Positions 3,587-36,568 of a stretch of 40,539 nucleotides of DNA are shown piece after piece; position 1 is the stretch's first letter, and the number at the start of each line of letters is the position of its first letter. The stretch is from Candidatus Woesearchaeota archaeon. GTDB taxonomy: Archaea > Nanobdellota > Nanobdellia > SCGC-AAA011-G17 > UBA489. A program made the translations under genes and the position numbers. The notes under the pieces are model-generated. The model had not been told where the DNA came from and made no database searches. It saw only the letters and a program-made list of their open reading frames with translations. The stretch spans positions 1-40,539 of the forward strand of contig CAYJXL010000003.1 in NCBI GenBank assembly GCA_964374125.1, in the 5' to 3' direction.

Positions 3587-4510
3587 ATGAAATCGATAAA
3601 TATAATCCAAGAGAAGTATAAAAAAGTTTCTTGTCCTGGTTGTAATTCTAATAAGTTAAAGAAAGATGGAAAAAGAAAAACTAAGAACAGAGGAAAGATT
3701 CAAAGATATAAATGTAAGGATTGTAATTTGAGATTTGTCCTTGATGATGGTTTTTACAGAATGAGGAACCACGAAAAGAAAATAACTCTTTGTATGGATT
3801 TATATTATAATGGAATGTCTTTTAGAAAAATCCAAGAACATCTGAAAGTATTCTATCCTAAAAATTGTCATTATTCTACTGCATATCGTTGGATAATCAA
3901 ATATTCAATGATGATTAGCAACTTAACGGACAAACTACAAAGTAAATCAGGAATTGAATTACAATCTGATGAGATGGAATATCAGAGAAGGGTAAGTAAA
4001 TATCAAAAAGGTAGGGAGCAGAATTGGTTCGTTGATGTGATGGACACAACAACTAGATTTATGGTTTCTTCTGGTTACATGAGAAGCAGAACAATAGACA
4101 ACATGGTTAAGGTTTTGAAAAGAGGAAAATTCGTAACAGGAAATCAGGTTAAGGTTATTACAACTGACGGACTTAAAGGTTATCCAAGAATGCTAAAGAA
4201 AAGTTTCGGGTTAAGGTCACATTGGAATCACAAAAGCCCGATTGTTCATAATGTTGTCATTGCATCTGAAAGAGGTTTTAATCACCCAATAGAAAGATTA
4301 CATAACTCAATTAGAGAACGAACAAAAGTCATGAGGGGATTTCATGGTTGCATGGAATCAGCGTCTGCAATAATGAAAGGATATGAAATCTATTATAATT
4401 TTATAAGAAAGCATCAAGGAATAAATTGTCGACCTTATGAGTTGGCTATTCCTGATTTAGAATTGAGTAAGAATAGATGGTTGGATTTGATTAAGATGTC
4501 TAAAGTTTAA
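3587..4510 (+). CDS. DDE transposase with N-terminal zinc finger (IS6/IS1-like)
   Basis: CPGC...CKDC zinc finger. DDE-type blocks SDEMEY, ITTDGLKGY, NHPIERLHNSIRERTKVMRGF and YNFIRKHQG. The family cannot be resolved by eye. Confidence 0.85.
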   Translation: MKSINIIQEKYKKVSCPGCNSNKLKKDGKRKTKNRGKIQRYKCKDCNLRFVLDDGFYRMRNHEKKITLCMDLYYNGMSFRKIQEHLKVFYPKNCHYSTAYRWIIKYSMMISNLTDKLQSKSGIELQSDEMEYQRRVSKYQKGREQNWFVDVMDTTTRFMVSSGYMRSRTIDNMVKVLKRGKFVTGNQVKVITTDGLKGYPRMLKKSFGLRSHWNHKSPIVHNVVIASERGFNHPIERLHNSIRERTKVMRGFHGCMESASAIMKGYEIYYNFIRKHQGINCRPYELAIPDLELSKNRWLDLIKMSKV

Positions 4511-5820: not shown

Positions 5821-6531
5821 ATGACCAAAAACAACTGCATCGTCGTCGTGGACTTCTCAGGCACCTTGATCAAGCCGTTCGTCGCAGAAGAAGCAAACAA
5901 GCGAAGATACGTAAGATTGGGTCTTGAACTGCCATCAGAAGCTGATCGTAAACGTGCGCATGGCACAAAAGAACACTATGATCCTCTGCGTGCCTACATC
6001 GGCGAGAAATTCGGCATTCAGTCCCATATGAAGATATTCCTGCAACAGGACCATGGAGAAACAAGAGAACTCACCGGCATAGAATACGAAACAAAAATCA
6101 TGACTGACCTGTTTCGTGATGAAATCTTACAGATTGCAAATGAACAAGGAGGCCGTATCTATAGCGATGGTATATTGGATGCACTCAGAGTAATTCAACG
6201 GAGAGGATACAAATTAGCGATTGTTTCTGGCATGCGAACAGATATTATCACAGGTATATTTGCTATTACAGAATGCTCAGTGAATTTTGATTTCGTATAT
6301 GGACAAGACTCGATCTTAAGTCGAGATGACAGTCATCTCTTAACGAAAGAACTTGCTGAGAAAGGAACGATTGAGTATATCATCGGAGACAAGTTGGCAG
6401 ATCTCGAACCTGCAACAGCGCTCGGCGCCAAGTCGATCTTCTTCAAGGGCGGCCACCCGACAGGAGGAGAAGAAGAATTCGCTGACTTCACTATAACATA
6501 TGCAAAAGAATTAGAAGAGCTCATCAAGTAA
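5821..6531 (+). CDS. HAD-superfamily hydrolase
   Basis: Motif I VVVDFSGTL (nucleophile Asp present; the Asp+2 position is Ser), motif II IVSGM, motif IV GDKLADLE. Confidence 0.75.
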   Translation: MTKNNCIVVVDFSGTLIKPFVAEEANKRRYVRLGLELPSEADRKRAHGTKEHYDPLRAYIGEKFGIQSHMKIFLQQDHGETRELTGIEYETKIMTDLFRDEILQIANEQGGRIYSDGILDALRVIQRRGYKLAIVSGMRTDIITGIFAITECSVNFDFVYGQDSILSRDDSHLLTKELAEKGTIEYIIGDKLADLEPATALGAKSIFFKGGHPTGGEEEFADFTITYAKELEELIK

Positions 6532-6726: not shown

Positions 6727-7296
6727 ATGATACATATGGTTCAAAATAAGACCAATCTGGAATTAGAAATAATCCTTGCCTTATTAAAGAATAAAGCCCA
6801 TTTGAGAGGCATGGCAAGGACGCTCAATGAGTCGCATTCAACAGTCTTAAGAAAAATCAACGAGCTTCTCAAAAAGAACGTGCTGGACTACAAGAAAGAG
6901 GGCAGAAACAAGGTATTCTTTATTAAAAACAACTTAACGGCAAAAAATTACGTCTACTCTGCTGAGATTTATAAACTCTCAAAGATAATAGAAAAATACC
7001 GGGAGCTGAGCATAATCTTTGAGGACATCAAAAGACAATTTCAAAAAGGCATGATTATCTTGTTTGGCAGCTATGCAAAAGGGAATCCAAGGCAGGAAAG
7101 CGATATTGACATTTATCTCGAAACAACAGGCAGCGAGATCAAGAGCCGATTGCAGGAACTAAACTCAAAGCTGAGCATAAAGACTGGCAGGTTTGACGTG
7201 AGGTCGCTATTAATCAAAGAAATAATGAAGAATCATGTTATCATAAGAGGAGTAGAGGAATTCTATGAACGAAATGAATTTTTTAAGGAAGCTTAA
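6727..7296 (+). CDS. wHTH plus minimal nucleotidyltransferase (MNT antitoxin-like)
   Basis: NTase motif ILFGSYAKGNPRQESDIDIYLE preceded by a wHTH (RGMARTLNESHSTVLRKINELL). The start may be the ATG at 6736, which sits 27 nt from TATA CTTTTATAC (6705-6713). Confidence 0.8.
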   Translation: MIHMVQNKTNLELEIILALLKNKAHLRGMARTLNESHSTVLRKINELLKKNVLDYKKEGRNKVFFIKNNLTAKNYVYSAEIYKLSKIIEKYRELSIIFEDIKRQFQKGMIILFGSYAKGNPRQESDIDIYLETTGSEIKSRLQELNSKLSIKTGRFDVRSLLIKEIMKNHVIIRGVEEFYERNEFFKEA

Positions 7297-7759
7297 AAAT
7301 GAAGGCAAAATAGAGCTCGTCGAGCCGTCAGAGGAAATGAGATTGTCGTATCTCAAGAAATCTGAAGACTGCCTTATATCTGCAAAGATACTTCTTCAAA
7401 ATCAACTATACGAAAATTCCACATCAGAAGCTTATTATGGCATGTATAACGCCCTGCTCGCTCTTTTGTTCACAGTTGGAATAAAATCAGAGAATCATTC
7501 AGCATCGCTTCTCATCTTTAAGAACCTGTTTCACGAAGAAAGGCTGTACAAACTGGCCTCTCATGCTAAAGAAGAAAGAATAGACAAGCAGTATTATGTG
7601 GAAGCGCAGCAGGCGTCAAAAGCCAGCAAGGAGTCCTGCAGCGACATAGTCCTGAAAACAGAGGAATTCTTTGTTAAAATGAAGCTGCTGATCAGTCAGA
7701 TGAATAACGAAAAAACGAATGCTGCAAGGATCTCATTTCAGGAATTGTTTACGCAGTGA
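7265..7759 (+). CDS. HEPN-domain protein (toxin-like partner of MNT)
   Basis: Overlaps the MNT gene by 32 nt. All-helical HEPN-like sequence (LISAKILLQNQLYENSTSEAYYGMYNALLALLF...). The MNT-HEPN gene order is typical. Confidence 0.7.
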   Translation: MNEMNFLRKLKNEGKIELVEPSEEMRLSYLKKSEDCLISAKILLQNQLYENSTSEAYYGMYNALLALLFTVGIKSENHSASLLIFKNLFHEERLYKLASHAKEERIDKQYYVEAQQASKASKESCSDIVLKTEEFFVKMKLLISQMNNEKTNAARISFQELFTQ

Positions 7760-13919: not shown

Positions 13920-13992
13920 TGGGCCTGCTCGGATTCGAACCGAGGACCTCAACCGTGTGAAGGTTGCGTCATAGCCGCTAGACTACAGGCCC
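13920..13992 (-). tRNA. tRNA-Val (CAC), no intron
   Basis: GGGCCUG/CAGGCCC acceptor, anticodon stem CAACC/GGUUG with loop UUCACAC, T arm CUCGG-UUCGAAU-CCGAG, discriminator A. No encoded CCA. Confidence 0.9.
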
Positions 13993-15045
13993 GCAGGTGA
14001 TTATATTATCCTTGACCGTGAACTTCACTGGCAGAAACTGTTCGATGAGCCATATATTAGTTTTTGCATGCGTACTTAGATGAGGAATCGCAATCTTGCA
14101 TTCTTTTCCGCTTAAAGCCATGTACACGAGAAGCTGGTCTGCCATGTATTCATCGACGGCGCAATTCATGCGCATTTGCGCTAACAATCCTTTGGCTGCT
14201 TCCTGCCCAACAGCTTCGCTTGCTTTATTTCTTTCGCCTAGCGCGTCCCATGCTATGATGCAGTTTTCGTAGACTGCCTTCAATAGTATTCCACAGCCTG
14301 GATTTAGTGTTTGTTGATATTCCTCAACAATGGAAATTGGCTGATTGATACTGATCGTTTTCTCGGCACTTTCACGGATTCTTTCGCAAACGCGCTTTTT
14401 TCGCAGATCAGAACTCGCAACAACAACGCCCTCGATGCCCAACAATGCTCCGCGTTCAAGCAAGGTTGCACTGCTTGTTTCTTTCACTTTTTTCACGAGA
14501 ACATTGACGTCGGCGCCACCCTTTGGATAAAAACCGTGCCTCTTCGTTGCAATGTGCATCTGAAAGCCAAGCTTCTTCATCATGGGCACAAGTACCTCTT
14601 GAATGTACAGGATATTTGGCGCATGCGTTCCAAATGTTCCGCCGCCAGTAACATGAATGCTGACATCAGATGCCCCATAGAAAGATGGCAATGCCAAGCA
14701 CTGCAGCAGAAGCCCAACGCTGCCAGCGGTTTCGACGTGGACATTTAATTCATTCTTATATTCTGACCTCGGGTGAAAGATAATTTCCGATGAGCCGAGT
14801 TTTGCTCCTTCCAATGAACCATTGCAAAATTCTTTCACGGCCTCAATTGCGCGGAGATGCTGCGTTCGCAAGCCGCTTTCTTTTCTTTGGCTTCGAATGC
14901 TATAGACTCGGACTGGCTTTTGCGCGATACATGAAAGGGCGACGCTCAAGCGGACAATAGAACCGCCCCCCTCCAAGTGATTACCGGGAATTGCCAGCAT
15001 GGACGTTCCTTCGCTTATGGAGCTTAAAATGCTTCCTATAGCCAT
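13978..15045 (-). CDS. rtcA: RNA 3'-terminal phosphate cyclase
   Basis: LEGGGSIVRLSVALSCIAQKPVRVYSIRSQRKESGLRTQHL and overall colinearity with RtcA. An alternative start is the Met at 15000. The last five codons overlap tRNA-Val. Confidence 0.85.
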   Translation of the reverse strand: MAIGSILSSISEGTSMLAIPGNHLEGGGSIVRLSVALSCIAQKPVRVYSIRSQRKESGLRTQHLRAIEAVKEFCNGSLEGAKLGSSEIIFHPRSEYKNELNVHVETAGSVGLLLQCLALPSFYGASDVSIHVTGGGTFGTHAPNILYIQEVLVPMMKKLGFQMHIATKRHGFYPKGGADVNVLVKKVKETSSATLLERGALLGIEGVVVASSDLRKKRVCERIRESAEKTISINQPISIVEEYQQTLNPGCGILLKAVYENCIIAWDALGERNKASEAVGQEAAKGLLAQMRMNCAVDEYMADQLLVYMALSGKECKIAIPHLSTHAKTNIWLIEQFLPVKFTVKDNIITCGPVV

Positions 15046-20034: not shown

Positions 20035-20734
20035 CTGAGCTTTTGTACTTGAGGGACAGCTATGCAAGAGAATTTGACGCAATGGTCACTGCGGTCAATG
20101 GCAAAGAGGTCATATTAGACAGGACGTATTTTTATCCAAGCGGTGGCGGGCAGCCTTTTGACACAGGCACGATTTCAACTGGCGGCGCTTTCTATTCTGT
20201 CGTGAATGTTCATAAGGGCGAGCATGGCGTTGTTCATGAACTTGATCATGACGACCCCAAGGTCGGCGATGTTGTCCATGGGGCTATTGATTGGGAGCGG
20301 CGGTACAAACTGATGCGGTTTCATACTGCAATTCACGTCCTTGTTGGCGTTATTTGCAATGAAACTGGCGCGCTGATTACCGGGAACCAGATTGACGTTG
20401 ACAAGAGCCGGATCGACTTCAATCTTGAGATTTTTGATAGGGAAAAGATGCAGGAACACTTTGAGAAGGCGAATGCGATTATCCAGCAGGATTTGCCGGT
20501 AACGGTGACGTTTACGACGAGAGAGGAGGCGTTGCAGATCCCTCGTTGTTCAAGTTGCTGAAGGGGTTTCCTGAGCACATCAAGGATATCAGAATCGTTT
20601 CTCTTGGCGAATTTGACCGGCAGGCAGATGGCGGAACGCACGTGCGATCAACGAGAGAAATCGGGAAGGTTGAGCTTTTAAGCTGCGAGAACAAGGGAAA
20701 GAATAATCGGAGGGTTTATTTTCAATTACTCTAA
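20031..20734 (+). pseudogene. alaX: AlaX-type alanyl-tRNA editing protein, frameshifted
   Basis: Frame 0 carries the HTAIHVL (HxxxH) core and stops at 20561. Frame 2 continues PSLFKLLKGFPEHIKDIRIVSLGEFDRQADGGTHVRSTREIGKVELL... to 20734. The junction is near 20536-20545. ATGA overlap with the upstream gene at 20031. Confidence 0.75.
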
Positions 20735-21406
20735 TCTTTTTTCCAAACCTTCGCCGACAAACTGGTTTCTGCCCCGTTGCTTTGCAATGCGTACTCTTGT
20801 GTCTGCTTTTTCCCTGAGATCAGAAATTTGCGCAAGAGGGTAAAAAGAACCACCAACGCTGATAGTGACGTTTTTATAATCACTCCCTTGCTTATAATGA
20901 ACGCCTGTGAACCTTTTGGCAAGATTCTGAGGTAAGGCGATTTGTTGATTGCGGACAACGTTAACTAGACGTTCGCCGTATCTCTCGAATAAACTAAAAT
21001 CCAGATCTCTTTTGACAACAATAAACTCTTCACCACCCCATCGCCCCATGAAATCACCAGTGCGAGGATCGAGACTGAGCGAAAGCGCAGAGGCGGTATG
21101 TGCCAATGCTATGTCTCCTGCGTCGTGACCATATGCATCATTATAACGCTTGAATTCATCAAAGTCAACGACATAGAAGCTGACTGTGCTGCCAGGTCGT
21201 TGTTTTCTGTTGAGATGTTCCTCGAGATAGCGAACAAGAAAGCGCGGGTTGAAAATTTCAAGATCGGGCACAAATTGACGTATCTTTTGATCATACATCA
21301 CTTCGGCTCGTACAATGTCCGCATTGGCAGGATCTAGAAGCGAAAGTTGCCTCAGTGCTGACAAAGGGTCAGTCTTTCTTCGTTGCGGTATATTCATTAC
21401 TTTCAT
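20726..21406 (-). CDS. GGDEF-domain diguanylate cyclase (stand-alone)
   Basis: DFDEFKRYNDAYGHDAGDIAL, I-site RTGD five residues before the A-site GGEEF, then SVGGS...ADTRVRIAKQRGRNQF. TATA TTATAAATAA (minus strand, 21431-21440). Confidence 0.85.
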   Translation of the reverse strand: MKVMNIPQRRKTDPLSALRQLSLLDPANADIVRAEVMYDQKIRQFVPDLEIFNPRFLVRYLEEHLNRKQRPGSTVSFYVVDFDEFKRYNDAYGHDAGDIALAHTASALSLSLDPRTGDFMGRWGGEEFIVVKRDLDFSLFERYGERLVNVVRNQQIALPQNLAKRFTGVHYKQGSDYKNVTISVGGSFYPLAQISDLREKADTRVRIAKQRGRNQFVGEGLEKRLE

Positions 21407-34764: not shown

Positions 34765-35295
34765 ATGCGCATGCGTGACGTTATGGTCTTTCAGTATCAC
34801 TATGCTCATGGAGAAGCAAGCTTTGACAAGCCATTGAAGTTCCAAGTAAAGGGTGGAGCGCATTTGACGTTTGAGATTGTTCCTGTTTATCAAGGGAAGA
34901 TGGTTGCACTGTTGCGCGATTCGATTCCCGGTCACGAGAAGCCTCCTGGCGCTGAGCAATACCCTGGGGGCATGTGGTATTTTTGTCATGATCTGGTTCG
35001 ATATGCTGAACCGATGGATAACTTTGTGCAGCGCATCGTTACGGCGCAAGCTGGTGTCAATGTCACTTCTTGGAAGATTACTGATTTTGAATCAACGTTC
35101 CAAGAGAAGGATGAACAATGGGCTTTGGTTGGTTACATACTGGCTGAAGTTGATGCTTTACCTAAGCCCGGTGTTTATGGGAATGAGGTGAAGAAAGTTG
35201 TTGTGTTTACAGAAAAAGATGTTCCAGAACCATTTGCGTGGTGGCCAACAGACGACGTAAGGGCGTATGCGAAGAAGCATCTGACTGAAAAGTAA
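34765..35295 (+). CDS. Hypothetical protein
   Basis: Long ORF with no recognised motif. The start is possibly the Met at 34783, about 27 nt from a TATA-like AAAGATTTTAAG. Confidence 0.5.
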   Translation: MRMRDVMVFQYHYAHGEASFDKPLKFQVKGGAHLTFEIVPVYQGKMVALLRDSIPGHEKPPGAEQYPGGMWYFCHDLVRYAEPMDNFVQRIVTAQAGVNVTSWKITDFESTFQEKDEQWALVGYILAEVDALPKPGVYGNEVKKVVVFTEKDVPEPFAWWPTDDVRAYAKKHLTEK

Positions 35296-35362: not shown

Positions 35363-35995
35363 CTACTCATCGTTGAGGAGAGGATACAATTTTTCTCTGG
35401 TAAGATCACGATAGTGTTGATCTCTTTCCTTGTCTTTAGGCGACAAGTCTTTCCAAGAACTAACGCCTTGCAGGCCTTTCTGCTGTGTGAAGAAGACTCG
35501 GTAGCCGAGATTCGGATGTTTTGTGTCTGTAATGCTGTAGGTATGGCATGCGTATGTTCTTCCGTCTTCTTCAATGGTGACATAACCGCCTTCTTTTTTG
35601 AAGATTTTTCGTAGGTCTGAGTGATTCACTTCTTCGATCTTTATGTTTCCCGGCTCAACCATTTCCTTGATGATACTTTTTATATAGTACCCTGGTCCTT
35701 GTAGGGGAATAAAATGGATATGCGCGTGTGACACGGTCTGACCCCATATGCCATACTCGATTTGGAATGGTGAACCAAAGGTTTGGTGCAATGCGTTGAG
35801 CATTTTCCTTTTTATTTGCAGGAATTCTTCTTGCAGCTTTTTTGGAAGCACCCCAAAACATGGAAGATGATCTCGTGTAATCAGCATGATGTGGCCGGGT
35901 GCAATAAGTCCGATCCCAATTCTTACTAAGAAGTTTTTTGATTCATATATTCGGTATTCGTCTCTTTCTTTGCCGCAGAAAATACAGTTTTTCAT
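35363..35995 (-). CDS. HIT-family nucleotide hydrolase/transferase with C-terminal extension
   Basis: N-terminal CIFC, APGHIMLITRDH and the histidine triad HAHIHFIP. An extra C-terminal domain of about 90 aa. Confidence 0.8.
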   Translation of the reverse strand: MKNCIFCGKERDEYRIYESKNFLVRIGIGLIAPGHIMLITRDHLPCFGVLPKKLQEEFLQIKRKMLNALHQTFGSPFQIEYGIWGQTVSHAHIHFIPLQGPGYYIKSIIKEMVEPGNIKIEEVNHSDLRKIFKKEGGYVTIEEDGRTYACHTYSITDTKHPNLGYRVFFTQQKGLQGVSSWKDLSPKDKERDQHYRDLTREKLYPLLNDE

Positions 35996-36001
35996 TGGAT
36001 G

Positions 36002-36103
36002 CGGGCCCAGTGGGATTTGAACCCACGACCCTCTGGTTTCTCACTCGGTGTTAAGAGCTTCATCCTTTTTGTCAGATGCTCCACCAAGCTGAGCTATGAG
36101 CCC
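36002..36103 (-). tRNA. tRNA-Lys (CUU) with two 14-nt introns flanking a 5-nt anticodon micro-exon
   Basis: Minus-strand exons 36103-36071, 36056-36052 (UCUUA) and 36037-36002. Acceptor GGGCUCA/UGGGCCC (one G:U), D arm GCUC-AGCUUGGUG-GAGC, anticodon stem UCUGA/CCAGA (A31:C39 mismatch), loop CUCUUAA, T arm GUGGG-UUCAAAU-CCCAC, G73. Confidence 0.75.
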
Positions 36104-36127: not shown

Positions 36128-36136
36128 CTTTAAAAA
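36128..36136 (-). promoter_or_regulatory. TATA box (TTTTTAAAG on minus strand) for tRNA-Lys
   Basis: Centre is about 28 nt upstream of tRNA position 1 (36103). Confidence 0.5.
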
Positions 36137-36151
36137 CGTTTCCGACGCAAG

Positions 36152-36161
36152 CTTTTTAAAG
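36152..36161 (+). promoter_or_regulatory. TATA box CTTTTTAAAG for rps8e
   Basis: Centre is about 28 nt upstream of the ATG at 36185. Confidence 0.5.
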
Positions 36162-36184: not shown

Positions 36185-36568
36185 ATGGCCATTGTTCAAT
36201 CGCGCTCCAGGCGGAAGTTCACTGGCGGACGCTATATTTCATGGAGAAAGAAGAAGCTGCATGAGCTCGGCCGGTCAGTGACGCTGACAAGATTGGGCGT
36301 GGATCATGCGACGATCTTGCGCGTGCGGGGAGCGAATACGAAGGTTCGCCTCTTGCGCGCTGAAACTGCGAACGTCTTTGATCCTGCTTCCAAGAAATAT
36401 CTTAAGCTGAAGATTGAGACTATTGTTGACAATCCTGCAAATCGCCACTTCATCAGGAGAAGCATTATCACGAAGGGCGCTGTCTTGAAGACAGAGAAGG
36501 GAAATGCGCGAGTGACGTCACGACCTGCGCAAGATGGTGTTATCAATGCAGTTCTCATTGCTAAATAA
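36185..36568 (+). CDS. rps8e: 30S ribosomal protein S8e
   Basis: MAIVQSRSRRKFTGGRY... followed by a TKVRLLR-type core. 127 aa, typical for archaeal S8e. Confidence 0.9.
   Translation: MAIVQSRSRRKFTGGRYISWRKKKLHELGRSVTLTRLGVDHATILRVRGANTKVRLLRAETANVFDPASKKYLKLKIETIVDNPANRHFIRRSIITKGAVLKTEKGNARVTSRPAQDGVINAVLIAK

What the first reader, a model, noticed from the sequence alone, without database searches (positions are those of the whole stretch)
36002..36103. tRNA-Lys(CUU) whose anticodon sits on a 5-nt micro-exon between two 14-nt introns
On the minus strand the acceptor stem, D arm, T arm (GUGGG-UUCAAAU-CCCAC) and variable loop are contiguous and canonical. The anticodon arm, however, reads UCUGA-C[AAAAAGGAUGAAGC]UCUUA[ACACCGAGUGAGAA]A-CCAGA. 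Removing two 14-nt blocks, at about 32/33 and at canonical 37/38, restores the loop CUCUUAA. No single-intron solution gives a U33-containing 7-nt loop. The minus-strand TATA box at 36128-36136 is at the right distance. Two introns only 5 nt apart raise the question of how, and in what order, the splicing endonuclease recognises them. The intron lengths match the 13-14 nt introns at 37/38 in the Ser and Met genes.
Basis: seen in the sequence. Interest (0 to 1): 0.7.

Follow-up and report, generated by a model that had tools for sequence, protein, structure and literature searches.

The report
Two-intron archaeal lysine tRNA gene
This is a real lysine tRNA gene from a tiny uncultivated (DPANN) archaeon whose anticodon sits on a 7-base piece between two short introns; this layout proves common in archaea, and the second intron appears to help fold the RNA so that the first is cut out first.

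Summary
The gene at 36002-36103 (-) is real: Rfam tRNA 48.1 bits, with 28 extra bases in the anticodon arm and no single-intron solution. Intron 1 lies at 30/31, not 32/33. The micro-exon is 7 nt (GCUCUUA, nt 31-37), and intron 2 lies at the canonical 37/38. Three results support this. A strict bulge-helix-bulge motif cuts at 30/31, and its central helix covaries in 33 homologues (99% of cells paired). Positions 31 and 39 form a Watson-Crick pair in 62 of 62 related genes. The spliced product is a perfect 74-nt tRNA-Lys(CUU).

The layout is not rare. The same 30/31 + 37/38 architecture occurs in tRNA-Lys(CUU) and tRNA-Lys(UUU) genes of DPANN, Thermoproteota and Asgard archaea. Position 30/31 is also the published junction of split tRNA-Lys(CUU) in Nanoarchaeum and Staphylothermus. 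It is a new member of a known kind.

The two splicing motifs share nucleotides and cannot coexist. Folding favours presenting intron 1 first in 31 of 31 precursors. Intron 2 is also complementary to the D-loop. That pairing covaries and is absent from single-intron controls, which suggests intron 2 helps present intron 1.

The parts
36002..36103 (-). Whole pre-tRNA-Lys(CUU) gene, 102 nt; the mature product is 74 nt (discriminator G73, no encoded CCA)
   Evidence: Rfam RF00005 48.1 bits. After removing both introns ARAGORN calls tRNA-Lys(ctt) with a perfect cloverleaf.
36073..36103 (-). Exon 1: tRNA nt 1-30 (acceptor 5' strand, D arm, nt 26, anticodon-stem nt 27-30 UCUG)
36059..36072 (-). Intron 1, 14 nt ACAAAAAGGAUGAA, inserted at the non-canonical position 30/31
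   Evidence: BHB scan: H 4/4, h 4 bp, bulges UGA and AAG. Same position in 39 parsed genome-scan genes including the window, 33 distinct junction sequences. Covariation. nt31-nt39 test.
36052..36058 (-). Micro-exon, 7 nt GCUCUUA: nt 31-37 (G31, C32, U33, anticodon C34 U35 U36, A37)
36038..36051 (-). Intron 2, 14 nt ACACCGAGUGAGAA, at the canonical position 37/38
   Evidence: After intron 1 is removed: BHB with a 5-bp outer helix (the anticodon stem), H 3 of 4 pairs (CUCU/UGAG, U35.U mismatch), bulges UAA and AAA. In 32 homologues the H complement at this exact offset averages 3.56 of 4 pairs, against 1.8-2.6 at slid offsets.
36002..36037 (-). Exon 3: nt 38-73 (A38, anticodon-stem 3' strand CCAGA, variable loop, T arm, acceptor 3' strand, G73)
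36075..36078 (-). BHB1 central helix, exon strand: C25 A26 U27 C28. Pairs with intron-1 GAUG (36061-36064).
   Evidence: 100% of cells paired and 3 of 4 pairs with compensatory changes in 33 sequences.
36061..36064 (-). BHB1 central helix, intron strand GAUG (intron-1 nt 9-12)
36079..36082 (-). BHB1 outer helix, 5' strand G21 G22 A23 G24 (end of the D-loop plus D-stem 3' strand). Pairs with C32-U35 (36054-36057).
   Evidence: 98.5% of cells paired, though mostly invariant because the search pattern fixed these bases.
36054..36057 (-). C32 U33 C34 U35 of the micro-exon. Used by BOTH motifs: outer helix of BHB1 and central helix of BHB2.
   Evidence: This is the basis for mutual exclusivity.
36040..36043 (-). 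BHB2 central helix, intron strand UGAG (intron-2 nt 9-12). In the rod-like fold it pairs instead with C11-A14 (36090-36093).
36082..36088 (-). D-loop segment C16 U17 U17a G18 G19 U20 G21 (CUUGGUG). Pairs with intron-2 CACCGAG in the fold that presents BHB1.
   Evidence: MFE and BHB1-constrained folds. Duplex -9.0 kcal/mol, reached by 3.6% of shuffles. Family-wide signal.
36044..36050 (-). Intron-2 nt 2-8 CACCGAG: proposed helper strand complementary to the D-loop
36128..36136 (-). Archaeal TATA-like box TTTTTAAA(G), 25-33 nt upstream of the mature 5' end
   Evidence: Read. Same box at the same distance upstream of the orthologous tRNA in L051. No expression data.

Best explanation
The locus encodes a functional tRNA-Lys(CUU) of a DPANN (Woesearchaeota/Nanoarchaeia-like) archaeon. 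Its transcript carries two short introns of the protein-spliced, bulge-helix-bulge (BHB) type: intron 1 at non-canonical position 30/31 and intron 2 at canonical position 37/38. Between them lies a 7-nt micro-exon (nt 31-37) that holds the whole anticodon loop except nt 38.

Shown by computation: each intron has its own BHB motif. The BHB for intron 1 forms only in a non-cloverleaf fold. In that fold the D-stem 3' strand and nt 26-28 leave their normal partners. G21-G24 pair with C32-U35 as the outer helix, and C25-C28 pair with the 3' part of intron 1 as the central helix. The BHB for intron 2 needs the normal anticodon stem (27-31/39-43) as its outer helix and C32-U35 as its central helix. 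The two motifs therefore compete for nt 27-28 and 32-35 and cannot exist together.

Inferred: the splicing endonuclease first cuts intron 1 in a rod-like precursor. That rod is stabilised because the 5' half of intron 2 pairs with the D-loop and D-stem 5' strand freed by the rearrangement. An RtcB-type ligase then joins nt 30 to nt 31. The molecule refolds toward the cloverleaf, which presents intron 2 in the classical anticodon-arm BHB. Intron 2 is cut and nt 37 and 38 are ligated. Intron 2 would thus act in cis as a folding helper for the removal of intron 1 and fix the order of splicing.
For: Identity and boundaries:
- Rfam tRNA 48.1 bits; no single-intron solution.
- BHB1 has H 4/4, h 4 bp and 3-nt bulges, and cuts exactly at 30/31.
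- BHB2 appears with a 5-bp outer helix once intron 1 is removed.
- 39 parsed tRNA-Lys(CUU) genes from the 47-locus genome scan plus the window have intron 1 at 30/31, and 32 of them also have a 37/38 intron.
- BHB1 is paired in 99.2% of cells, with 3 compensatory pairs, against 28-51% for slid controls. The rival register loses 13/33 at one distinguishing pair.
- nt31-nt39 is Watson-Crick in 62/62 genes with three pair types.
- The nearest relative L051 has the syntenic gene with the same exons except the D-loop. Intron 1 keeps only its 3' helix strand, intron 2 is unrelated in sequence, and the TATA box is conserved.
- The spliced product is called tRNA-Lys(ctt).

Order of splicing:
- The BHB1 fold is more stable than the BHB2 fold in 31/31 full precursors (median 12 kcal/mol). 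BHB2's gap to the MFE falls from 14.7 to 4.5 kcal/mol after intron 1 removal.

Helper helix:
- The intron-2 core is complementary specifically to the D-loop (mean z -1.57; 23/62 below -2). Five other exon segments and the intron-1 core give about 0.
- The preferred register stacks on the BHB1 outer helix.
- The signal is absent from 24 single-canonical-intron tRNAs including 8 tRNA-Lys (mean z +0.35; Mann-Whitney p about 1e-7).
- Each intron-2 core prefers its own D-loop variant over foreign ones (-6.66 vs -4.68 kcal/mol; own better in 50/62; Wilcoxon p about 4e-8; 0/1000 permutations).
- Window and L051 each prefer their own partner.

Literature: BHB geometry and multi-intron tRNAs (PMC5829648, PMC4033280); sequential removal of closely spaced introns (PMC8450103); the 30/31 junction of split tRNA-Lys(CUU) with an hBHBh' motif (PMC3218864).
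Against: - There is no expression or splicing evidence for this gene.
- No splicing endonuclease or RtcB gene lies in the window, so the enzyme type is unknown.
- BHB2 in the window is relaxed (U35.U mismatch in the central helix; inner helix of 1 bp).
- After intron 1 removal the nearest-neighbour MFE of the window's intermediate is still a non-cloverleaf fold, 8 kcal/mol below the BHB2-presenting fold. Refolding must then rely on tertiary contacts, Mg2+ or proteins that the energy model ignores.
- The BHB1 fold also remains available after intron 2 removal (gap 2.1 kcal/mol), so the reverse order is not physically excluded.
- The D-loop:intron-2 helix is clear in only about half of the genes (30/62 at -7 kcal/mol or lower). 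It is weak in Asgard genes and in genes with very short intron 2.
- For the window alone the helix is only modestly significant (3.6% of shuffles). In L051 the BHB1-constrained MFE does not use it.
- The control set is small (24), and homologues are not phylogenetically independent.
- The parse that selected 30/31 used stem and BHB scores, so some of the pairing percentages are favoured by construction.
Confidence: 0.8

Rival explanations
1. One reading: intron 1 lies at about 32/33 (AAAAAGGAUGAAGC). This leaves a 5-nt micro-exon UCUUA and a mature tRNA with A31 opposite C39.
For: It restores the same 7-nt loop CUCUUAA. An older paper numbers the homologous N. equitans tRNA-Lys junction as 32/33 (PMC2237900, Fig. 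2 legend).
Against: It gives an A31.C39 mismatch, whereas the 30/31 parse gives G31-C39. Across 62 related genes the base just 5' of C32 pairs with nt 39 in 62/62 (G-C, A-U, C-G), but the base just 3' of G30 pairs in only 9/62. No BHB motif cuts at 32/33. The covarying helix sets the cuts at 30/31. Chan et al. place the split junction at 30/31 (PMC3218864).
Confidence: 0.03
2. Same gene and same two introns, but no fixed order. Either intron 2 is removed first from a cloverleaf-like fold with intron 1 looped out, or the order is stochastic. The D-loop complementarity of intron 2 would then be unrelated to splicing, for example inherited sequence or a role in blocking premature modification or aminoacylation.
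For: BHB1 remains close to the MFE after intron 2 removal (median gap 2.1 kcal/mol). Nearest-neighbour energies ignore tRNA tertiary structure and enzyme binding. The helper helix is absent or weak in about half of the genes. Broad-specificity endonucleases accept relaxed motifs (PMC3239211, PMC5829648).
Against: In the full precursor BHB2 has only a 1-bp outer helix next to a 14-nt loop, and its fold is 12 kcal/mol (median) less stable than the BHB1 fold in 31/31 genes. In the preferred register the 5' splice site of intron 2 is at or inside the D-loop:intron-2 helix. That helix covaries and is incompatible with the cloverleaf, so selection acts on a non-cloverleaf state that exists while intron 2 is still present. 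It occurs only where a 30/31 intron is present.
Confidence: 0.15
3. A decayed or silent tRNA pseudogene whose anticodon arm has accumulated insertions. The apparent introns are not spliced.
For: No expression data. Only one copy is visible. The BHB2 central helix has a mismatch. Default ARAGORN does not call the gene.
Against: All four stems are perfect after removing exactly the two blocks. In the 85%-identical-AsnRS relative L051, exons are conserved outside the D-loop while both introns have diverged, yet each keeps its splice-motif strand and the promoter box is kept. The same architecture, with compensatory changes, occurs in many lineages. No other tRNA-Lys is present in the 40 kb.
Confidence: 0.03
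4. A different tRNA with a single intron: ARAGORN's intron mode calls tRNA-Val(AAC), 85 nt, with one 18-nt intron.
For: ARAGORN -i output.
Against: That model needs an anticodon stem with a C.A mismatch and two G.U pairs, plus a mismatched long 'variable arm' that valine tRNAs do not have. ARAGORN gives the homologous genes inconsistent identities (Phe, Ser, Thr, Pro, Stop...), which shows forced single-intron fits. Conservation of GCUCUUA/ACUCUUA with a pairing nt 39 argues for Lys.
Confidence: 0.01

Closest known systems
Multiple-intron archaeal tRNA genes (Sugahara et al. 2007/2008; reviewed in PMC4033280 and PMC4090602; handled iteratively by tRNAscan-SE 2.0, PMC8450103)
   Same: Two BHB-type introns in one tRNA gene, one at a non-canonical position. 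The introns are so close that one must be removed before the second motif can form.
   Different: Described mainly for Thermoproteales and Thaumarchaeota. This gene is from a Woesearchaeota/Nanoarchaeia-like DPANN genome. I could not read the primary lists (papers not held), so I cannot say whether the exact 30/31 + 37/38 tRNA-Lys combination is tabulated there.
Trans-spliced split tRNA-Lys(CUU) of Nanoarchaeum equitans and Staphylothermus marinus/hellenicus (PMC3218864)
   Same: Same tRNA and the same junction, 30/31. An hBHBh' motif is reported at the junction.
   Different: There the two halves are separate genes joined in trans through a long leader duplex. Here the interruption is a 14-nt cis intron, and a second intron at 37/38 is present.
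ARMAN-2 tRNA-Pro(GGG) with adjacent introns at 53/54 and 59/60 (PMC3239211, Fig. 1C)
   Same: A DPANN tRNA with two introns a few nucleotides apart, leaving a 6-nt micro-exon.
   Different: The micro-exon is in the T-loop, not the anticodon loop. No ordered pathway or intron-exon helper pairing is described in the text I read.
Canonical archaeal/eukaryal tRNA intron at 37/38 with the anticodon-intron helix
   Same: Intron 2 has this position. It pairs with C32-U35 as the central helix and uses the anticodon stem as the outer helix.
   Different: In these two-intron genes its 5' half additionally complements the D-loop. That feature is absent from 24 single-intron controls.

Membership tests
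tRNA (Rfam RF00005) | Cloverleaf covariance-model score above the curated threshold | tested here: met
   48.1 bits against a gathering score of 29, full-length model match with a 37-nt insert in the anticodon arm
tRNA-Lys(CUU) | After splicing: 7-nt anticodon loop with U33, anticodon CUU, purine 37, and a 5-bp anticodon stem | tested here: met
   Loop CUCUUAA, stem UCUGG/CCAGA, 74 nt; ARAGORN calls tRNA-Lys(ctt)
Archaeal BHB (endonuclease-spliced) intron: intron 1 | Two 3-nt bulges on opposite strands separated by a 4-bp helix, flanked by an outer helix, with cuts after the second bulge nucleotide restoring the tRNA | tested here: met
   H CAUC/GAUG 4/4, bulges UGA and AAG, outer helix 4 bp, inner helix only 1 bp. 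Covariation in 33 sequences.
Archaeal BHB (endonuclease-spliced) intron: intron 2 | Same motif at 37/38, with the anticodon stem as outer helix | tested here: inconclusive
   Outer helix 5 bp and 3-nt bulges, but the central helix has 3 of 4 pairs (U35.U), i.e. a relaxed motif, and it forms only after intron 1 is removed. Homologues average 3.56 of 4 pairs at the exact offset.
Archaeal BHB intron system | The genome encodes a splicing endonuclease (EndA) able to cut non-canonical or relaxed motifs, and an RtcB ligase | not testable with these tools
   Neither gene is in the 40.5-kb window (Pfam); only RtcA (13978-15045) is present. The rest of the genome is not available.
Archaeal BHB intron system | Spliced mature RNA is observed | not testable with these tools
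   No transcript data are available.
Multiple-intron archaeal tRNA | Two or more BHB introns in one tRNA gene | tested here: met
Split (trans-spliced) tRNA-Lys(CUU) | 5' and 3' parts encoded at separate loci with their own promoters | tested here: not met
   All parts are contiguous within 102 nt under one promoter. Only the junction position 30/31 is shared (PMC3218864).
Self-splicing group I/II intron in a tRNA anticodon loop | An intron of hundreds of nucleotides with a catalytic core | tested here: not met
   The introns are 14 nt each. Rfam reports no other family in the window.

The most novel reading that the evidence does not exclude
In two-intron tRNA-Lys genes the canonical 37/38 intron is not a passive passenger. 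Its 5' half has been selected to pair with the D-loop and D-stem 5' strand, locking the primary transcript into a rod-like non-cloverleaf fold. That fold presents the 30/31 intron to the endonuclease and hides the splice site of the 37/38 intron. One intron would therefore act as a cis folding helper for the other and impose an obligatory splicing order. I did not find this described in the papers I could read. A further corollary is that the 30/31 interruption of tRNA-Lys is ancient or recurrently targeted across DPANN, TACK and Asgard archaea, and is the cis counterpart of the split tRNA-Lys genes.
Probability: 0.45. Interest if true: 0.6.

Novelty: new member of a known kind. Interest (0 to 1): 0.4.

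Why it matters
For annotation: standard tools miss or mislabel this gene. Default ARAGORN finds nothing. In intron mode it calls Val(AAC) here and Phe, Ser, Thr or 'Stop' for the homologues. DPANN and other archaeal genomes can therefore appear to lack tRNA-Lys; PMC5829648 notes incomplete tRNA sets in such genomes.

For biology: the gene is one instance of a widespread, conserved tRNA-Lys architecture whose first interruption coincides with the junction of the known split tRNA-Lys genes. [quoted passage not shown]

For mechanism: the comparative data give a concrete, testable model of how closely spaced tRNA introns are ordered. The two bulge-helix-bulge motifs are mutually exclusive, and a covarying helix between the second intron and the D-loop stabilises the fold in which the first intron is cut.

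Tried and rejected
1. The idea that the 30/31 intron is specific to the CUU isoacceptor because BHB1's outer helix pairs GAG with CUC. Rejected: a metagenome scan found 32 distinct tRNA-Lys(UUU) genes with the same 30/31 + 37/38 layout, with the outer helix tolerating G.U.
2. An alternative register for the intron-1 motif (AUCU/GGAU plus GGAGC/GCUCU), which is the ViennaRNA MFE register in the window. Rejected: it would leave two extra bases in the loop, and its distinguishing pairs fail in 13/33 and 3/33 homologues.
3. ARAGORN's tRNA-Val(AAC) single-intron model. Rejected as a forced fit.
4. A weak ARAGORN candidate 'tRNA-Arg(CCT)' at 6388-6500(-), seen only at a lowered threshold. It has mismatched acceptor and D stems and no Rfam support, so it was treated as false.
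5. Shifting the intron-2 boundaries by +/-1 nt (same product because of the A run). The +1 version has H 4/4 but no outer helix, so the canonical 37/38 version was kept (own reading of the sequence; the 37/38 motif is scored).
6. An energy z-score for how much native intron-2 cores stabilise the BHB1 fold. It is partly confounded by hairpins inside intron 2, so I rely on the target-specific duplex tests.
7. A fixed-column covariation count for the D-loop:intron-2 helix. Not run, because the register varies by a few nucleotides; own-versus-foreign D-loop and permutation tests were used instead.
8. Primary papers that could list this exact gene structure were not held: Sugahara 2007 and 2008, Fujishima 2010, Marck & Grosjean 2003, Randau 2005 PNAS.
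9. A full-text search for '30 31' with '37 38' gave nothing relevant.
Full report

The minus strand of window 36002-36103 reads GGGCUCAUAGCUCAGCUUGGUGGAGCAUCUGACAAAAAGGAUGAAGCUCUUAACACCGAGUGAGAAACCAGAGGGUCGUGGGUUCAAAUCCCACUGGGCCCG. Rfam's tRNA model matches it end to end at 48.1 bits (gathering score 29). The acceptor, D and T arms are normal, and 37 nt lie between the anticodon-stem halves where 9 are expected. Default ARAGORN misses it.

The TTTTTAAAG box is at 36136-36128, 25-33 nt upstream of the mature 5' end.

One supporting statement fails. No Ser or Met tRNA gene exists in the window. Rfam at gathering score and at E<=1, ARAGORN with introns allowed and a permissive T-arm plus acceptor scan all find only tRNA-Val(CAC) at 13920-13992 and this gene.

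**2. Where are the introns?**

Enumerating two-block deletions gives two possible mature sequences.

I scanned for the bulge-helix-bulge (BHB) geometry: two 3-nt bulges separated by 4 bp (PMC5829648), with cuts after the second bulge nucleotide. The canonical intron validates this rule internally. The scan finds a strict motif:
- central helix C25-C28 (CAUC) with intron GAUG;
- bulges UGA and AAG;
- outer helix G21-G24 with C32-U35.

This motif cuts ...UCUG|ACAAAAAGGAUGAA|GCUCUUA, that is at 30/31.

After that intron is removed, a second motif appears at 37/38. The 5-bp anticodon stem is its outer helix, CUCU/UGAG is its central helix (3 of 4 pairs), and its bulges are UAA and AAA.

The gene is therefore:
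- exon 1: 36103-36073
- intron 1: 36072-36059
- micro-exon GCUCUUA: 36058-36052
- intron 2: 36051-36038
- exon 3: 36037-36002

The spliced 74-mer is a perfect cloverleaf, which ARAGORN calls tRNA-Lys(ctt). ARAGORN's own intron-mode call for the locus is Val(AAC) with one 18-nt intron. That model needs a mismatched anticodon stem and a spurious long variable arm.

**3. Comparative evidence**

I scanned one genome per species for tRNA-Lys(CUU) genes with an insertion 5' of the anticodon. The scan returned 47 loci. With the window, 39 parsed genes have the first intron at 30/31 (33 distinct junction sequences), and 32 of them also have a 37/38 intron. The genes come from Woesearchaeota, Nanoarchaeota, Aenigmatarchaeota, Iainarchaeia, Thermofilaceae, Thermocladium (including the cultured T. 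modestius), Desulfurococcales, a Methanosarcinales MAG, and the Asgard lineages Hodarchaeota and Wukongarchaeum.

On a fixed-register alignment of the 33 distinct junctions:
- The BHB1 structure is paired in 99.2% of cells.
- The central helix is paired in 100% of cells, and 3 of its 4 pairs change on both sides (35 cells).
- Slid partners pair in only 28-51% of cells.
- The rival register loses 13/33 and 3/33 sequences at its two distinguishing pairs.

For intron 2, the tetramer at the exact BHB offset complements CUCU in 3.56 of 4 positions on average, against 1.8-2.6 at neighbouring offsets.

The sharpest test of the boundary uses 62 distinct two-intron tRNA-Lys genes. The base just 5' of C32 forms a Watson-Crick pair with nt 39 in 62/62 (G-C 44, A-U 14, C-G 4). 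One caveat applies: the parser chose intron positions partly by stem and BHB scores, so absolute percentages are somewhat favoured. The compensatory changes and the slid controls are not affected.

**4. Organism and nearest relative**

The window encodes archaeal housekeeping genes (S8e, ATP-dependent DNA ligase, TrmB-type regulators, RNase HII, RtcA, AsnRS). The AsnRS's best named relatives are Woesearchaeota/Nanoarchaeia at about 73% identity.

A contig whose AsnRS is 85% identical (L051) keeps the gene order ligase, TrmB, S8e, tRNA, AsnRS and carries the orthologous tRNA:
- The exons are identical outside the D-loop.
- Intron 1 is 16 nt instead of 14 and keeps only the ...GGAUGAA 3' end.
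- Intron 2 is 14 nt of unrelated sequence, but still has 3 of 4 pairs to CUCU at the right offset.
- The TTTTTAAA box is at the same distance.

That is the signature of selection on the exons and the splice motifs, not of a decaying pseudogene.

**5. How it compares with what is known**

- Archaeal tRNA genes with up to three introns at non-canonical positions are well documented (PMC4033280, PMC4090602).
- ARMAN-2 tRNA-Pro(GGG) has introns at 53/54 and 59/60 (PMC3239211).
- Position 30/31 of tRNA-Lys(CUU) is exactly where the trans-spliced halves join in Nanoarchaeum equitans and Staphylothermus, with an hBHBh' motif (PMC3218864).

The window's gene is therefore a new member of a known kind. 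I could not read the primary catalogues of multi-intron tRNAs, so I cannot say whether the 30/31 + 37/38 tRNA-Lys combination is explicitly listed there.

I tested whether the layout is specific to the CUU anticodon, because BHB1's outer helix uses C32-U35. It is not. A metagenome scan found 32 distinct tRNA-Lys(UUU) genes with the same two introns.

**6. Mechanism: one combined motif or two, and in what order?**

There are two motifs, and they cannot coexist. BHB1 uses nt 21-28 and 32-35. BHB2 uses nt 27-31 (with 39-43) and 32-35.

For the window's full precursor:
- the BHB1-presenting fold has a constrained minimum of -39.9 to -40.9 kcal/mol (MFE -41.7);
- the cloverleaf that presents BHB2 reaches only -23.5 kcal/mol.

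Across 31 distinct two-intron precursors, the BHB1 fold is the more stable in all 31 (median difference 12.1 kcal/mol). The gap between the BHB2 fold and the MFE falls from 14.7 to 4.5 kcal/mol once intron 1 is removed. This predicts intron 1 first, then refolding, then intron 2.

Two weaknesses remain. BHB1 also stays accessible if intron 2 is removed first (gap 2.1 kcal/mol). And the window's intron-1-spliced intermediate still has a non-cloverleaf MFE 8 kcal/mol below the BHB2 fold. These are nearest-neighbour energies, without tertiary structure or proteins.

**7. An unexpected feature: intron 2 pairs with the D-loop**

In the window's MFE, intron-2 CACCGAG pairs with D-loop CUUGGUG, and UGAG pairs with CUCA of the D-stem. 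This extends BHB1's outer helix into a rod. I tested whether this is general.

- **Specificity.** Across the 62 two-intron Lys genes, I took the intron-2 core with its BHB2 strand excluded. It is more complementary to the D-loop than its own shuffles (mean z -1.57; 23/62 below -2). It shows no signal against five other exon segments, and intron-1 cores show none against anything.
- **Register.** The commonest register places intron-2 nt 0/+1 opposite nt 20 (30 of 51 genes within one position). The helix then stacks on BHB1's outer helix across a U36-A37 bulge, and the 5' splice site of intron 2 sits at or inside the helix.
- **Control.** From the same loci I harvested 24 tRNAs with a single canonical intron, 8 of them tRNA-Lys. 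They show no such complementarity (mean z +0.35, none below -2). Mann-Whitney p is about 1e-7, and the same after collapsing to 55 distinct exon bodies.
- **Covariation.** Each intron-2 core binds its own D-loop variant better than the other 18 variants (-6.66 vs -4.68 kcal/mol; own better in 50/62; Wilcoxon p about 4e-8; 0 of 1000 permutations reach the observed mean).
- **Window versus L051.** The window and L051 differ in both D-loop and intron 2, and each prefers its own partner (-9.0 and -6.7 against -5.2 and -3.8 kcal/mol).

The helix is evident in only about half of the genes. For the window alone it is modestly significant (3.6% of shuffles), and L051's constrained MFE does not use it.

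My reading is an inference. When the D-stem 3' strand is recruited into BHB1, intron 2 captures the freed D-arm 5' half. This stabilises the fold in which intron 1 is cut and masks intron 2's own 5' splice site. Intron 2 would thus be a cis folding helper that fixes the order of splicing. I did not find this described in the papers I could read.

**8. Verdict**

The finding is real but needs two corrections: 30/31 rather than 32/33, and a 7-nt rather than a 5-nt micro-exon. One supporting claim (the Ser and Met genes) is unfounded. As a gene it is ordinary for archaea with broad-specificity splicing endonucleases, and I file it as a new member of a known kind. Its value is practical, since such genes are mis-annotated, and as an entry point to a testable model of ordered, intron-assisted splicing.

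Confidence is about 0.9 in the gene structure, about 0.6 in the intron-1-first order, and about 0.45 in the helper-helix mechanism.

Noticed in passing
window 13920-13992 (-) and 13978-15045 (-): The only other tRNA in the window, tRNA-Val(CAC) with no intron, lies immediately downstream of an RNA 3'-terminal phosphate cyclase (RtcA) ORF and overlaps it by about 15 nt. RtcA makes the 2',3'-cyclic phosphate ends used by RtcB-type ligation, but no RtcB or EndA gene is in the window.
   Followed up: partly
window 35363-35995 (-), 34765-35295 (+); L051 5774-6000: A HIT-family ORF starts only 6 nt after the tRNA's 3' end on the same strand, with no obvious terminator between them. In the nearest relative L051, this ORF and the neighbouring 176-aa ORF with no Pfam match are absent, and the tRNA sits directly between S8e and AsnRS. 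This suggests an insertion next to the tRNA in the window's lineage.
   Followed up: partly
window 36152-36160 (+): A second TATA-like box (CTTTTTAAA on the + strand) lies 25-33 nt upstream of the S8e start codon at 36185. The tRNA and S8e therefore appear to have divergent back-to-back promoters, and S8e may be leaderless. The same pair of boxes is present in L051 (5795-5830).
   Followed up: no
window 20726-21406 (-): An ORF with a clear GGDEF diguanylate-cyclase domain (Pfam E = 2.6e-26). To my knowledge this is uncommon in archaea, and it could indicate horizontal acquisition.
   Followed up: no
window 6727-7296 (+) and 7265-7759 (+): Overlapping nucleotidyltransferase and HEPN ORFs, the usual arrangement of a minimal NTase/HEPN toxin-antitoxin pair. 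Upstream at 3587-4510 is an ORF with weak IS-type DDE transposase and InsA zinc-ribbon matches (below Pfam's thresholds).
   Followed up: no
window 6388-6500 (-): At a lowered threshold ARAGORN proposes a 'tRNA-Arg(CCT)' with a 19-nt intron. The acceptor and D stems are badly mismatched and Rfam gives nothing at E<=1. Probably a false positive; it lies inside the HAD-hydrolase ORF 5821-6531.
   Followed up: partly
L036 (Thermofilum sp., CUU) and L111 (metagenome, UUU): A tRNA-Lys(CUU) and a tRNA-Lys(UUU) gene share an identical 16-nt intron 1 (GCGCGTGCCGGTCGAG) and near-identical second introns at 45/46. Isoacceptor genes can thus carry the same introns, through recent duplication or gene conversion.
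   Followed up: no
L003 (Woesearchaeota) and L025 (Thermofilaceae): The 15-nt intron 1 is nearly identical in a DPANN MAG and a TACK MAG (TCTAAAAAGGTCGAA vs TCTAGAAAGGGCGAA). Two of the three differences lie in the helix strand and compensate exon changes. This could be ancient conservation, convergence of short A-rich loops, transfer, or a binning error.
   Followed up: no
L001-L132: ARAGORN in intron mode assigns the two-intron tRNA-Lys genes a scatter of wrong identities (Phe, Ser, Thr, Pro, Leu, Val, 'Stop'). Automated annotations of these genomes are likely to lack tRNA-Lys or to contain spurious suppressor-like tRNAs.
   Followed up: partly
L004, L006, L010, L017, L031, L036, L042: Some tRNA-Lys(CUU) genes combine the 30/31 intron with a second intron elsewhere (45/46, 47/48, 48/49, 51/52 or unresolved) instead of 37/38. 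Whether those introns also pair with the D-arm was not examined.
   Followed up: no
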